Positions 15,001-18,000 of a stretch of 43,204 bases of DNA are shown one piece after another (position 1 is the stretch's first letter; every line of letters begins with the position of its first letter). The position numbers were made by a program. This stretch comes from a virus, in UHGV virus genome UHGV-0007115; one strand, 5' to 3'.

Positions 15001-18000
15001 ATCTGAATTGCAGTTTATCCCTACCGGTCTTACTGACGAGGCAATGAAACGGGTGGTAACTGCTGCGCAGGTGGCACATGCTCCGGTGATAATCGGCGTT
15101 GACCCTGCATACTCCGGTGTTGATGACGCGGTGATATACCTGCGGCAGGGGCTGCACAGTAAGGTGCTGTGGACCGGCAACAAGACCACTGACGATCTGA
15201 TTATGGCAAAGCGTATCGCTGACTTTGAAGACCAGTATCAGGCTGACGCGGTGTTCATCGACTTCGGTTACGGTACCGGGCTGAAGTCAATCGGTGACGG
15301 TTGGGGGCGCACATGGCAACTTGTTCCGTTCGGTGGCGCGTCTACTGACCCGCAGATGCTCAACAAGCGTGGGGAGATGTTCAACTCATGCAAGACATGG
15401 CTGAGGCTGGGCGGCATGCTGGATGACCAGGAAACAGCGGACGACCTGTCGGCAGCAGAGTACAAAGTTCGCGTGGACGGTAAAATCGTTATCGAACCGA
15501 AGGAAGATATCAAGGAGCGGCTTGGGCGTTCGCCGGGTAAAGGCGATGCGCTACTGCTGACGTTTGCGTTCCCTGTGTCAAAGCGTCTGCGAATTCCCGG
15601 GCAGCAGAACCAGCAAGGCAAAGCCATCACAGATTACGATCCCTATGCTTAATCCGCTGGATGGGATAATGCTGCTGATATCCTCTGGTGAGGATAAAAC
15701 AAAGCCAGCTCATAGGCTGGCTGTTTGTGCCATGTCACGGTGTTAGAAGGTTATTTTATCGAATGCGGCGTTGATTGCCTTGGCGTCCTGCTCAGCACCA
15801 ACCACATCAAGTAAAGATCTTTTACTAAGCACTTCAGCCAGGCATTGTAACTTCATGTTGTATAAGTTTTCGCGCATGTAATCATCATCACTTTTTTCTT
15901 TGGCGTATACAGCGCGAGAAATATCAAACACATTGCCTTTTTCCATTTCAGTTTTCTGCGCTGAAATCCAGTCATGGCAAGTAACTCCTATTCCATGGTC
16001 ATCGCTAAGCGTTAACCCGGCAAGTCGCTCACCTGGAATTGCTTCATAAAGCATTTCATTTCCTGCAAAAACACCATAAAAAATTGAGTCATCACCCTGA
16101 ACAATGCGTACATATTTGCACGGCCATTCATTTAGATATTTAGCTAGCATATCGGCTGTTTTCATGATCTCACCTTAAAAAAATGCCCGGACGAACCGGG
16201 CGAACTGGAAGCAATGAGTTATGCCTTCCGTGGCTGTACTGGTTTACAGCATGAAGTCATCGCAATGGCGTCCTGCTGTAAAAAGGGCGGTGATAGTCCT
16301 TCAAGGGAAACCATCACCGCCAAGCACCTGGAACTTCTGGCATCACGGTCCTTAGGCGTGATTCTGGCGTGGCATGCAGGATTCGAACCTGCGACCAACC
16401 GCTTAGAAGGCGGTTGCTCTGTCCAACTGAGCTAATGCCACAACGCTGAGAGCACTTAGCCTGTTAAGGCGCCACACTTTGTCGCGGCTCCATAAATGCT
16501 CTCATCGTTGTACCCTCGTCTCTTCCGAGGCGTCACACCGAATCGCCGGGATGGTGAATCCCCGTGCGCGGAATAAAACCGCTCGACTTGCACATTCCGG
16601 CTACCTGGTTCGTTTGCCCGAGCAAGGGATGGTGCCCCTTAAACGTATCCAGACCGCTATCGGCGCATGTGCCATACGCCGTACTGCTCAAAATAAAAGC
16701 TCACTCCACCTGTTCAATTTAACGACAAGCCAGTCAGGTTAATAACCGGAATGAACCCTTTGCTTACCTGAAAGGTAATAATTTGTGCGTTAAATGTCAA
16801 CTATCTACGATAAATAAATCATATGCGGTTAAATTGGTAATGATTTAATTGCGTACGGAGTCATTGATATGTGCATGGGTAGCTCACCGTCAGTGCCTGC
16901 AACACCAGAAGTTCAGGCAGCACCACAGGAGCAGGATGCCGCCGTTGTTGATGCCCGCGACGAAGAAACTCGTCGCCGTCGCGCTGCTGCTGGTCGTAGT
17001 TCTACGCTGCTTACCGGTTCTCAGGGCGACACATCAACCGCTAATACCAGCGGTAAAACGCTGCTTGGTCAGTAACCGGAGTCATTGAAATGGCGGAAAC
17101 AACTAAAGAGCGATTGAACAAACAGTTCGCACAACTTGAAAGCGAGCGTCAGTCGTTCGAGCCGCACTGGCGCGAGTTGAGTGATTACATCAACCCGCGT
17201 GGTTCCCGCTTTCTGACTTCTGAGGCCAACCGTAACGATCGGCGCAATACACGCATTATTGATTCGACCGGGACTATGGCGGCGCGCACTCTCGCCAGCG
17301 GCATGATGTCAGGCATCACAAGCCCCGCGCGTCCGTGGTTTCGCCTGGCTACGCCAGATCCTGAAATGATGGATTATGGCCCTGTTAAGTTGTGGCTTGA
17401 GGCAGTTCAGAACCGCATGAACGATATGTTCAATAAGTCGAATCTCTACCAGTCTCTTCCGCAGTTATACGGAAGCCTCGGCACATACAGCACTGGTGCA
17501 ATGGCAGTGCTGGAGGATGACGAGGACATCATTCGCACAATGCCATTCCCGATAGGCAGTTACTACCTGGCTAACTCACCTCGTGGCAGTGTTGACACCT
17601 GTTTTCGCAAGTTCTCTATGACTGTTCGTCAGCTTGTTCAGGAGTTCGGGCTAAATAACGTCAGCGAATCCGTAAAAAGCATGTGGGAAAGCGGCACCTA
17701 CGAGAAGTGGATTGAAGTGATGCATTCGGTTTACCCGAACATTGACCGCGATACATCGAAGCTGGATAGCAAGAACAAGCCATTCAAATCGGTTTATTAC
17801 GAGGTTGGTGGCGATAACGACAGGTTGTTGCGTGAGTCCGGATTCGATGAGTTTCCAATTATGGCTCCGCGCTGGGAAGTTAACGGCGAAGATGTTTATG
17901 GATCATCATGCCCGGGTATGCTGGCGCTTGGACCTGTTAAGGCATTGCAGCTTCTCCAGAAGCGCAAGTCGCAGTTGATTGATAAAGCCACCAATCCGCC

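What the first reader, a model, noticed from the sequence alone, without database searches (positions are those of the whole stretch)
15653..16445. tRNA-Arg(UCU) and an unknown opposite-strand gene inserted between terminase and portal
The late operon is interrupted by a minus-strand cassette bracketed by terminators (15697-15722 and 16170-16196): a well-folded tRNA-Arg with anticodon UCU and a 140-aa protein with no recognisable motif. The tRNA may supply a rare-codon decoder or serve as a secondary attachment target; the protein is a candidate immunity or host-modulation moron.
Basis: seen in the sequence. Interest (0 to 1): 0.45.

Follow-up and report, generated by a model that had tools for sequence, protein, structure and literature searches.

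The report
Phage tRNA operon with unannotated RNA
The tRNA-Arg and the 140-aa gene are real but ordinary parts of a repressor-controlled accessory operon found in all epsilon15/phiV10-like phages; the unexpected part is the roughly 250-nt structured RNA directly upstream of the tRNA, which is unannotated yet occurs in about a third of complete E. coli genomes.

Summary
Observation confirmed. tRNA-Arg(UCU) lies at 16365-16441 (-). The 140-aa ORF lies at 15743-16165 (-).

The window is a Uetakevirus (epsilon15/phiV10-like) prophage. The cassette is a conserved backbone feature of the genus, not a private insertion. It is the distal part of a leftward unit that starts at a sigma70-like promoter (16800-16772). 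A 17-bp palindrome recurring 17 times in the prophage overlaps that promoter and is the presumed repressor operator, so the unit is probably silent in lysogens.

The order is promoter, structured leader RNA (16688-16439), tRNA, two terminators, then a swappable gene slot. The slot holds the 140-aa protein here, and Gp49-family, Tad2-like anti-Thoeris or other proteins in relatives.

AGA+AGG codons are 5.7-fold enriched in the phage over the host, which supports codon supplementation. The ORF is under purifying selection (dN/dS 0.11-0.19); its function is unknown.

The leader RNA has strong covariation (16 of 45 pairs compensatory), no Rfam match and no literature hit. It also occurs in P1 (between trnI and ban), in Stx2 and cdtI lambdoids (pL leader) and in a Stenotrophomonas phage. 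Its function is unknown; a put-like elongation-control role is my best guess (about 0.35).

The parts
16763..16800 (-). Promoter and operator of the leftward unit. The -35 is TTGACA (16800-16795), followed by a 17-nt spacer and the -10 TACCTT (16777-16772). The palindrome ATTACCTTTCAGGTAAG (16779-16763) covers the -10 and the predicted start near 16765.
   Evidence: Sequence reading. The -35, -10 and palindrome are conserved in 6 phages. Epsilon15's GenBank record marks the homologous palindrome as 'repressor' binding, next to an IHF site. The palindrome occurs 17 times in the window against 1.65 expected and flanks the HTH repressor gene at 6621-7205. The tool's stricter promoter scan did not call it, because its -10 matches only 3 of 6 positions.
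16689..16762 (-). 5' leader between the predicted transcription start and the conserved RNA core. It is less conserved and AT-rich.
   Evidence: G+C 0.35 for 16689-16868.
16439..16688 (-). Conserved structured leader RNA, a candidate new RNA family.
- P1: 16681-16673 with 16669-16661.
- P2: 16656-16650 with 16607-16598, enclosing a variable hairpin.
- Invariant GGUAGCCGGAAUGUGCAAG: 16606-16588.
- P3: 16587-16585 with 16547-16545.
- P3a: 16562-16559 with 16551-16548, loop UUCACCA.
- P4: 16530-16526 with 16518-16514, loop GAAGAGA.
- P5, a long closing stem: 16512-16494 with 16457-16439. Its last three pairs use tRNA nucleotides 1-3.
   Evidence: RNAalifold on 18 diverse copies gives 45 pairs, 16 with compensatory changes. 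99.3% of cells are paired against 92.4% in shuffles and 30-45% when partners are slid, with 0/500 shuffles reaching any of the five measures. Coordinates are mapped. Many G-U pairs fix the strand. No Rfam family matches at E<=10.
16365..16441 (-). tRNA-Arg, anticodon UCU (reads AGA and probably AGG), with encoded CCA.
   Evidence: The same gene is found in PAS61, phiV10, SPN9TCW and Klebsiella phage ST512-KPC3phi13.3 and is annotated in RefSeq.
16280..16364 (-). tRNA 3' trailer with two conserved hairpins. The first is AUCACG/CGUGAU (16362-16342). The second is a 14-bp hairpin (16321-16286) with loop UUUCCCUUGAAGG followed by CUUUUU. This is terminator 1, the likely end of most transcripts.
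   Evidence: (terminator-like, 14 pairs) and conservation across E. coli, Salmonella and Klebsiella phages.
16202..16283 (-). Inter-terminator stretch. It contains the block UUUUACAsCAGrACGCCAUUGCGAUGAC (16283-16256), identical in all six aligned phages except at the two positions written s and r. It also contains a hairpin (16232-16202) with a weak RyhB-like match.
   Evidence: Invariant columns. RyhB model 22 bits against a gathering score of 55, E 0.33. The hairpin is deleted in PAS61, and no SPN9TCW sequence aligns to this stretch (my SPN9TCW slice ended at the annotated start of SPN9TCW_003, which I suspect is called too far upstream, so absence is not shown). Function unknown.
16177..16201 (-). 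Terminator 2: GCCCGGUUCGUCCGGGC followed by U7. It abuts the Shine-Dalgarno sequence of the ORF (AAGGUGAG, 16176-16169).
   Evidence: The conserved backbone runs up to the ATG in all relatives.
15743..16165 (-). 140-aa cargo gene (PHROG 4846). The N-terminal half is variable. The C-terminal helical hairpin is conserved (...ENLYNMKLQCLAEVL...AINAAFDKITF).
   Evidence: dN/dS 0.11-0.19; G+C 0.41. The slot holds other families in relatives.
15693..15722 (.). Terminator 3, shared with the convergent terL gene. The hairpin AGCCAGC/GCUGGCU is followed by a U-rich tail on the minus strand and a weaker one on the plus strand.
   Evidence: phiV10's record annotates the homologous site as a rho-independent terminator.

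Best explanation
The finding covers the distal two-thirds of one leftward transcription unit that belongs to the backbone of epsilon15/phiV10-like phages.

Shown:
- The order on the minus strand is sigma70-like promoter with an overlapping palindrome, an untranslated leader of about 85 nt, a conserved structured RNA of about 250 nt, tRNA-Arg(UCU), a trailer with terminator 1, terminator 2, RBS plus a swappable ORF, then terminator 3 facing terL.
- The RNA and the tRNA share three nucleotides.
- The ORF slot is exchanged exactly between the ATG and terminator 3.

Inferred:
- The palindrome is the operator of the prophage's HTH repressor. The unit would then be off in the lysogen and switched on at induction or infection.
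- Most transcripts end at terminator 1 and are cut by tRNA-processing enzymes into a free leader RNA, the tRNA and a small trailer RNA.
- The tRNA supplements the scarce host tRNA-Arg(UCU) for phage genes rich in AGA/AGG.
- The 140-aa protein is made only from transcripts that read through two terminators. It is one of several alternative accessory, probably counter-defence or host-takeover, proteins.

Leader RNA: I commit to a cis-acting, co-transcriptional role that makes RNA polymerase resistant to termination on long untranslated early transcripts. This is a functional analogue, not a detectable homologue, of HK022 put. I put this at about 0.35, against about 0.25 for a trans-acting host-factor-binding RNA.
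For: Anatomy and conservation:
-, and collinear relatives.
- 521 of 5426 complete E. coli genomes carry the tRNA segment and 113 carry the whole cassette.

Operator logic:
- 17 palindromes against 1.65 expected, clustered around the HTH_3 repressor gene and the isrK/C4/Bro-N antirepressor module.
- Epsilon15's record annotates the homologous site as repressor-binding.
- Overexpressed repressor of the sibling phage ZX5 shuts down lytic genes (PMC9782041).

tRNA role:
- AGA+AGG is 14.8 per 1000 codons in the prophage against 2.6 in the host.

Cargo slot (39 loci):
- ORF140 family 14, Gp49/PF13876 10, Tad2-like/PF11195 4 (E 4e-26), a 282-aa membrane/coiled-coil protein 4, and others.
- No homology between the three occupant pairs compared.
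- Low G+C and purifying selection.

Leader RNA:
- Covariation.
- Present in 1840 of 5426 E. coli genomes and never annotated.
- Sits 35-145 nt downstream of the best sigma70-like promoter match, with different sequences between the -35 and -10 hexamers in different phage types (64 of 118 distinct upstream regions score 9 or more of 12).
- Lies in the pL leader of cdtI, directly after the cI terminator, and downstream of cI-like genes in mEp460, mEp390 and Stenotrophomonas phage BUCT708.
- Lies inside P1's C1-controlled ban operon.
- Terminator-like sites are about 2-fold enriched in the 500 nt downstream.
- No N-like ORF follows it in the lambdoid carriers examined.
Against: - No transcript data. 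The promoter's -10 is weak (TACCTT) and failed the tool's own scan.
- Operator identity rests on annotation by analogy and on enrichment, not on binding data.
- The crude ORF caller inflates AGG somewhat through spurious ORFs. The abundant head genes contain no AGA at all, so the tRNA would matter only for early, tail and lysis genes.
- Nothing ties the 140-aa protein to any activity. The anti-defence reading rests on one neighbour family (Tad2-like) in the same slot.
- For the put-like idea, a covariance model of the P1-P2 domain finds neither putL nor putR and nhmmer finds nothing.
- Only 68 of 134 copies have a terminator-like site within 500 nt.
- In P1 the RNA lies 2.3 kb from the promoter.
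- In this phage, processive read-through would run antisense into terL.
Confidence: 0.6

Rival explanations
1. First reader's reading. The cassette is a lysogenic-conversion moron inserted into the late operon. The protein would be an immunity or host-modulation factor expressed from the prophage, and the tRNA would double as a secondary attachment site.
For: The slot is variable and has low G+C. Terminators isolate it. Other genes of this prophage look like lysogen-expressed cargo, for example a YafO-family toxin pair.
Against: The layout is the genus backbone, not an insertion. The attP core is elsewhere (41350). The only recognisable promoter carries the operator. There is no room for a promoter between terminator 2 and the RBS. 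No PADLOC defence model matches.
Confidence: 0.1
2. The tRNA is mainly a counter-defence device. It would be a replacement or decoy for host tRNA-Arg cut or depleted by anticodon nucleases, rather than a codon-usage supplement. The whole unit would then be an early anti-defence operon.
For: It shares a unit with a slot that carries a Tad2-like anti-Thoeris protein in a Klebsiella relative. It is under direct repressor control, hence expressed as soon as repression lifts. Its sequence differs from the chromosomal gene: the weakest match shown in that search is 93% over 56 nt to a chromosomal tRNA-Arg gene. From general knowledge, colicin D-type nucleases cut tRNA-Arg and phage T5 tRNAs rescue PARIS-cleaved tRNA. 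That is a lead, not tested here.
Against: The strong AGA/AGG excess in phage genes already explains the tRNA. No nuclease-resistance feature can be read from the sequence. Epsilon15 does without the tRNA.
Confidence: 0.2
3. The leader is a stable trans-acting RNA rather than a cis element. Processing at the adjacent tRNA would release it (RNase P at its 3' end here, tRNA 3' maturation at its 5' end in P1). It would then bind and sequester a conserved host protein or RNA during lytic growth.
For: Unpaired nucleotides are invariant from Enterobacterales phages to a Stenotrophomonas phage. It moves as an independent module between Uetakeviruses, lambdoids and P1. It abuts a tRNA in 50 of 155 copies, on either side. 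Hairpin loops carry anti-Shine-Dalgarno-like UCCYUUG, also seen in the C4 RNA loop.
Against: 105 of 155 copies have no tRNA nearby to define their ends. Its position right after early promoters is hard to explain for a purely trans-acting RNA. No target is identified.
Confidence: 0.25
4. The conserved block upstream of the tRNA is not an RNA. It would be a small protein gene on the opposite strand, or a DNA-level site.
For: Annotators have placed hypothetical ORFs over it (mEp460_037, Tyrion gp54). A plus-strand ORF of 87 aa exists at 16479-16742.
Against: Indels between copies are not multiples of three. The same conserved nucleotides are read in different frames in different copies: ARLAHSGY in the window against LACTFRLP in Citrobacter werkmanii. 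Compensatory changes and many G-U pairs make sense only as RNA of the tRNA strand.
Confidence: 0.03

Closest known systems
Phage-encoded tRNA-Arg(UCU) genes of temperate enterobacterial phages (annotated in O157 typing phages 9 and 10, phiv142-3, SPN9TCW, SPC32H/N, Klebsiella ST512-KPC3phi13.3)
   Same: Same gene at the same position between terL and portal, near-identical to the phiV10 and PAS61 copies in the alignment, and annotated as tRNA-Arg.
   Different: Nothing is different for the tRNA itself. It is an already-annotated member. Epsilon15 has lost it together with most of the leader RNA.
HK022 put RNAs (putL, putR), cis-acting processive antiterminators
   Same: The position is the same: an untranslated structured RNA just downstream of the repressor-controlled early promoter in lambdoids that lack an N gene there. 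mEp390, a member of the same subfamily as HK022, carries this RNA where HK022 has putL.
   Different: It is about 250 nt with at least five helices, against about 70 nt with two. There is one copy per phage rather than two. nhmmer and a covariance model detect no similarity. Its effect on RNA polymerase is untested.
P1 ban operon (C1-controlled early operon carrying tRNA genes)
   Same: It contains a copy of the same RNA (P1 through P4, about 80% identical), directly after trnI and before ban. It is likewise repressor-controlled and mixed with tRNA genes and small-RNA-like regions.
   Different: The RNA lies 2.3 kb from the promoter and follows rather than precedes the tRNA. It lacks the long closing stem P5. 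The P1 record has no feature there.
Variable accessory or anti-defence gene slots of phages (for example Tad2, PF11195)
   Same: This is a precise ORF-for-ORF replacement between conserved flanks. One occupant is a Tad2-like Thoeris anti-defence domain protein. Tad2's sponge function is described in bioRxiv 10.1101/2023.05.01.538930.
   Different: The 140-aa protein shows no similarity to Tad2-like or Gp49 proteins. No function is shown for it.
GOLLD and ROOL, large structured phage RNAs often next to tRNA genes (from general knowledge; both are Rfam families)
   Same: Phage-borne, ornate, strongly conserved RNAs of unknown function, sometimes adjacent to tRNA genes.
   Different: This RNA is much smaller, occurs in Gammaproteobacteria phages, and matches no Rfam model, including those two.

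Membership tests
Elongator tRNA-Arg(UCU) | Cloverleaf scoring above the curated tRNA threshold | tested here: met
   Rfam RF00005 scores 73.3 bits against a gathering score of 29. ARAGORN calls it.
Elongator tRNA-Arg(UCU) | Anticodon UCU at positions 34-36, with the Arg identity element A20 and an A/G73 discriminator | tested here: met
   ARAGORN reports anticodon tct at position 35. A20 in the D-loop AGUUGGACA, G73 and the encoded CCA were read from the sequence. The identity rules come from general knowledge of E. coli ArgRS.
Elongator tRNA-Arg(UCU) | Expressed, processed and aminoacylated | not testable with these tools
   No transcript or charging data are available.
Phage moron / exchangeable cargo slot | Unrelated genes at the same position in otherwise collinear genomes | tested here: met
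   At least five unrelated occupant families in 39 loci.
Phage moron / exchangeable cargo slot | Own transcription signals and atypical base composition | tested here: inconclusive
   Terminators lie on both sides and G+C is 0.41 against 0.52-0.55. No separate promoter was found; the T-run of terminator 2 abuts the RBS.
Phage moron / exchangeable cargo slot | Expression from the repressed prophage (lysogenic conversion) | not testable with these tools
   The operator over the only recognisable promoter argues against it, but there are no expression data.
HK022 put RNA | Sequence and structure similarity to putL or putR (two-stem RNA of about 70 nt) | tested here: not met
   nhmmer gives only a chance 16-mer inside nun. 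Covariance model R2 finds neither putL (L012 814-741) nor putR at E<=10 with filters off.
HK022 put RNA | Location just downstream of early promoters | tested here: met
   Met for pL-type promoters: cdtI, mEp460, mEp390, Stenotrophomonas BUCT708 and this phage. No second, pR-side copy was seen: one place per phage record, although some E. coli genomes hold up to four copies.
HK022 put RNA | Suppresses termination in cis through the beta' zinc-binding domain | not testable with these tools
   There is only indirect support, a 2-fold enrichment of terminator-like sites downstream.
Any Rfam 15 family (including C4, DicF, RyhB, T-box, GOLLD, ROOL) | Covariance-model match over 16439-16760 | tested here: not met
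   No match at E<=10 in that stretch. RyhB scores 22 bits against 55 at 16177-16232 only. No DicF is found in relatives either.
Tad2-like (PF11195) / Gp49_66 (PF13876) proteins | Profile match of the 140-aa protein | tested here: not met
   No Pfam hit at E<=1. hhalign probability against the Klebsiella Tad2-like protein is 0.1%.

The most novel reading that the evidence does not exclude
The roughly 250-nt RNA that ends in the first bases of the tRNA is a new family of phage regulatory RNA. It would bind a conserved host machine, most plausibly elongating RNA polymerase as an independent, larger counterpart of HK022 put. It would control early transcription in Uetakeviruses, N-less lambdoids including Stx2-converting phages, and P1-like plasmid prophages. 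It is present in about a third of sequenced E. coli strains.
Probability: 0.3. Interest if true: 0.8.

Novelty: new member of a known kind. Interest (0 to 1): 0.5.

Why it matters
The tRNA and the ORF add little on their own. Both are already annotated in RefSeq, and the tRNA fits the familiar rare-codon pattern.

Three things are worth keeping:
- The terL-portal gap of epsilon15-like phages is an operator-controlled accessory unit with a precisely exchangeable gene slot. That makes it a good place to look for new counter-defence proteins. One occupant is already a Tad2-like sponge, and the 140-aa family is the commonest occupant in the loci sampled (14 of 39).
- The unit appears to be repressed in lysogens, which changes what phenotype to look for.
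- A strongly covarying RNA with no Rfam match and no annotation in any record examined lies in P1, in Stx2 and cdtI phages, and in 1840 of 5426 complete E. coli genomes. If it acts on transcription elongation, it would explain how N-less lambdoids express their early-left operons. It would also be only the second known class of protein-independent phage antiterminator RNA.

Tried and rejected
- **HK022 put homology.** nhmmer gave only a 16-mer that lies inside the nun ORF. I mapped putL from the numbering in PMC9378689 and saw a resemblance by eye (ACGGCG...CAUGCGUCG...AGCG). Covariance model R2 does not detect putL or putR, so homology is rejected as untestable or absent.
- **DicF-like label for the hairpin at 16321-16286.** No DicF match in the window or in relatives. 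Dropped.
- **RyhB mimic at 16232-16177.** It scores 22 bits against 55. The shared 13-mer is the 3' strand of a local hairpin, and the element is deleted in PAS61. Treated as chance.
- **BoxA/nut reading of UGCUCUY.** That strand covaries with its pairing partner, so the stem is what is selected, not the boxA sequence.
- **First covariance model R1.** It used an RNAalifold consensus that paired the P1 loop with AUGUGC instead of forming P1. I replaced it with R2, which uses the covariation-supported helices. The possible GCACAU/AUGUGC pseudoknot cannot be tested because both strands are invariant.
- **Second R2 hit at 39177-39259.** It scores 16.9 bits and is only a GC hairpin, with P2 unpaired. 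Rejected.
- **Structure route for ORF140.** The AlphaFold model is poor and Foldseek finds nothing. There is no PDB sequence match either.
- **PADLOC hits of the 282-aa slot occupant.** These are coiled-coil noise.
- **Pas sRNA and lambda LPR1/PreS papers.** They concern other loci.
- **P1 genome paper.** Not held in the library.
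Full report
**1. What is at the coordinates**

ARAGORN finds one tRNA in the 43-kb window: tRNA-Arg, anticodon UCU, at 16365-16441 on the minus strand. Rfam's tRNA model scores it 73.3 bits. Read directly, it has A20, G73 and an encoded CCA.

The 140-aa ORF is at 15743-16165 (-), with an ATG and a good Shine-Dalgarno sequence. A longer one at 16321-16286 was overlooked.

**2. Setting**

Megablast places the window in Uetakevirus, the epsilon15/phiV10-like temperate podoviruses. PAS61 and HEMP4 match throughout. phiV10 and its kin match everywhere except the ORF. The region is 100% identical to part of a prophage next to guaA in E. coli E-1246, where RefSeq already annotates 'tRNA-Arg' and 'hypothetical protein'.

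The published attP core occurs once, at 41350. The tRNA therefore plays no part in integration.

The layout is terS-terL (+), a minus-strand ORF, tRNA-Arg (-), about 420 nt without genes, then gp3 and portal (+). It is shared by E. coli, Salmonella, Klebsiella and Enterobacter members. It is a backbone feature, not an insertion into this phage.

**3. The unit has a promoter with an operator**

An alignment of six phages in minus-strand orientation shows a conserved TTGACA, a 17-nt spacer and TACCTT at 16800-16772. The palindrome ATTACCT-N3-AGGTAAK (16779-16763) covers the -10 and the start site.

Epsilon15's GenBank record labels the homologous palindrome as a repressor site, next to an IHF site. 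In the window the palindrome occurs 17 times with at most 3 mismatches, against 1.65 expected. The copies cluster around an HTH_3 repressor gene (6621-7205), upstream of terS, and around an isrK/C4 antisense RNA plus Bro-N antirepressor module.

In a sibling phage, overexpressed repressor shuts off lytic genes (PMC9782041). I infer a P1-like regulon of dispersed operators, with this unit silent in the lysogen. That is inference; no binding or transcript data exist. The tool's stricter promoter scan did not call the site.

**4. The tRNA**

I used the same crude ORF caller on the prophage and on 49 kb of host core genes from strain E-1246.

| Codon | Prophage (per 1000) | Host (per 1000) |
|---|---|---|
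| AGA | 8.24 | 1.76 |
| AGG | 6.56 | 0.85 |

The odds ratio is 5.7 with p 8e-31. AGA is absent from terL, portal and capsid genes and frequent in early, tail, tailspike and lysis genes.

Codon supplementation is therefore plausible, though it would not help the most abundant virion proteins. A counter-defence role as a replacement for cleaved tRNA-Arg cannot be excluded and is listed as a rival.

**5. The ORF**

It has 111 homologues, all in Enterobacterales and all unnamed. dN/dS is 0.11-0.19 against homologues in E. coli SCU-101 and Citrobacter werkmanii. The N-terminal half is variable and the C-terminal helical hairpin is highly conserved.

There is no Pfam, NCBIfam, PADLOC or PDB match. 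The AlphaFold model is poor and has no fold match. G+C is 0.41 against 0.52-0.55 in the flanks.

In 39 loci the gene immediately after terminator 2 varies:

| Slot occupant | Loci |
|---|---|
| This family (PHROG 4846) | 14 |
| Gp49/PF13876 | 10 |
| Tad2-like Thoeris anti-defence domain protein (PF11195, E 4e-26) | 4 |
| 282-aa membrane/coiled-coil protein | 4 |
| 138-aa membrane protein | 2 |
| Singletons | remainder |

The three occupant pairs I compared (Gp49 with Tad2-like, and the ORF140 family with Tad2-like and with SPN9TCW_003) share no detectable homology. The conserved backbone runs through terminator 2 and the RBS up to the ATG, so whole ORFs are swapped.

The T-run of terminator 2 abuts the RBS. 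The protein can therefore be made only from read-through transcripts or from an unrecognised weak promoter between the terminators.

**6. The unexpected part: a structured RNA upstream of the tRNA**

The stretch 16688-16439 is conserved well beyond Uetakeviruses:
- P1, P7, D6, SJ46 and RCS47. In P1 it lies between trnI and ban, inside the C1-controlled ban operon.
- Lambdoids cdtI, mEp460, mEp390, Ayreon and 2H10, and Stx2c and Stx2a phages.
- A Stenotrophomonas phage.
- 1840 of 5426 complete E. coli genomes, with no annotated feature under any of the 40 matches listed.
- More than 120 IMG/VR contigs.
- Species of Citrobacter, Klebsiella, Kosakonia, Kluyvera, Phytobacter, Buttiauxella, Enterobacter and Ca. 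Erwinia dacicola.

RNAalifold on 18 diverse full-length copies predicts 45 pairs in helices P1-P5, and 16 pairs show compensatory changes. On that structure 99.3% of cells pair, against 92.4% in shuffles and 30-45% with slid partners. None of 500 shuffles reaches any of the five measures. Numerous G-U pairs fix the strand as that of the tRNA.

Loops and junctions are nearly invariant, even in the Stenotrophomonas phage. Examples are AUGGCACAU, GGUAGCCGGAAUGUGCAAG, UUCACCA, GGCGAUACGGUGUGAC and GAAGAGA.

A protein-coding explanation fails. Indels are not multiples of three, and the same conserved bases are read in different frames in different copies.

No Rfam 15 family matches at E<=10. No held paper contains the core sequence.

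The 3' strand of the closing stem P5 uses tRNA nucleotides 1-3. In copies without the tRNA the same GUG is kept and is followed by UGAAU and a hairpin with a GGCUGA loop.

**7. Context of the RNA**

Of 155 copies held:

| tRNA neighbour | Copies |
|---|---|
| None nearby | 105 |
| Followed by tRNA-Arg(UCU) | 30 |
| Preceded by tRNA-Ile2(CAU), P1 type | 18 |
| Followed by tRNA-Ile(AAU) | 2 |

The RNA is thus an independent module.

In cdtI the order is cI stop, terminator, TTGACA-16-CATAAT among operator-like repeats, 45-50 nt, then the RNA. That is the pL leader. Downstream come DUF2303 and HD-domain genes, or xis-int, and no N-like ORF.

In most distinct copies the best sigma70-like promoter match lies 35-145 nt upstream, and the sequence between its -35 and -10 hexamers differs between phage types. 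About half of the 118 distinct upstream regions (64) score 9 or more of 12.

Terminator-like sites are twice as frequent in the 500 nt downstream as in control segments, but only 68 of 134 copies have one.

**8. Comparison with put**

HK022 put RNAs occupy the same position and act on RNA polymerase without protein factors (PMC9378689). mEp390, from the same subfamily as HK022, carries the present RNA there.

I mapped putL (L012 814-741) and putR. Neither nhmmer nor a covariance model of the P1-P2 domain detects them. Membership is therefore not met. A functional analogy remains my preferred but weakly supported hypothesis (about 0.35). A processed, trans-acting host-factor-binding RNA is the main rival (about 0.25).

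**9. Verdict**

It is partly wrong: not a private insertion, not an att site, and probably not lysogen-expressed.

The tRNA and the ORF are ordinary and already annotated. The adjoining leader RNA is, as far as Rfam 15 and the held literature show, an undescribed and very widespread structured RNA. It is the reason for the middling rather than low interest score.

Noticed in passing
window 35043-35225 (-), with 34302-35039 (-): isrK and C4 antisense RNA (Rfam 74.7 and 78.6 bits) lie directly upstream of a Bro-N antirepressor gene, forming a P1/P7 ImmI-type module. The three lambdoid carriers of the leader RNA that I scanned with Rfam (cdtI, mEp460, Citrobacter braakii locus L032) have the same isrK/C4 pair.
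   Followed up: partly
window 135, 3353, 6486, 6548, 7260, 7308, 7645, 9608, 9670, 13551, 13569, 16763, 28795, 34214, 35261, 35354, 36473: A 17-bp palindrome ATTACCT-N3-AGGTAAT is dispersed through the prophage: 17 sites against 1.65 expected. Sites lie upstream of terS and next to the tailspike-side genes. This suggests that one repressor directly controls many operons, as P1's C1 does.
   Followed up: partly
window 16801-16868 (+ strand, upstream of gp3): About 60 nt (CTACGATAAATAAATCATATGYGGTTAAATTGGTAATRATTTAATTGCGTACGGAG) are almost invariant across E. coli, Salmonella and Klebsiella phages. This is more conserved than the neighbouring genes, and there is no obvious sigma70 promoter. It may be a late promoter or activator site, or a 5' UTR element for gp3-portal.
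   Followed up: no
L003 (epsilon15) 2246-2334 compared with L006 (SPN9TCW): Epsilon15 keeps only P1 and the start of P2 of the leader RNA, fused to the descending arm of terminator 1. The motif TTCCCTTGATGCT occurs both in the P2 hairpin loop and in the terminator-1 loop of SPN9TCW. A deletion between these repeats would explain the loss of most of the RNA plus the tRNA. Epsilon15's record labels the remnant 'RNaseIII'.
   Followed up: partly
window 16177-16232 (-): A hairpin plus terminator has a weak RyhB-like match (22 bits, E 0.33) that shares CAUUGCUUCCAGU with RyhB. It is probably chance. The element is variable: deleted in PAS61 and altered in epsilon15 and the Klebsiella phage.
   Followed up: partly
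window 33347-34172 (-): A small gene pair includes a YafO-family type II toxin. The Pfam match is weak (E 0.00095), but RefSeq names it so in strain E-1246. It is likely lysogen-expressed cargo near the tail end of the prophage.
   Followed up: no
L010 (Enterobacter phage Tyrion) 3708-3772: An int-alpA RNA (Rfam 44 bits against a gathering score of 35.8) sits in the same terL-portal accessory region. It lies between gp53, whose N-terminal sequence resembles that of the Hafnia homologue P0111 of the ORF140 family (my reading; its C-terminus was not compared), and a DUF551 gene.
   Followed up: no
L007 (P1) 2058-2177: There is a sub-threshold STnc100-like match (33 bits, E 0.0016) inside the P1 ban operon, upstream of tciA. 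Together with the annotated dicF-like region, three tRNAs and the leader RNA, this makes the ban leader a collection of non-coding RNAs.
   Followed up: no
L161 (E. coli E-1246) 1-9900: In strain E-1246 the tailspike-side end of the matching prophage abuts an IS26/Tn3/aac(3)-IIe resistance region and a pemIK pair. The window instead continues to an att core at 41350. The window therefore does not come from that assembly as it stands, or the two differ at that end.
   Followed up: no
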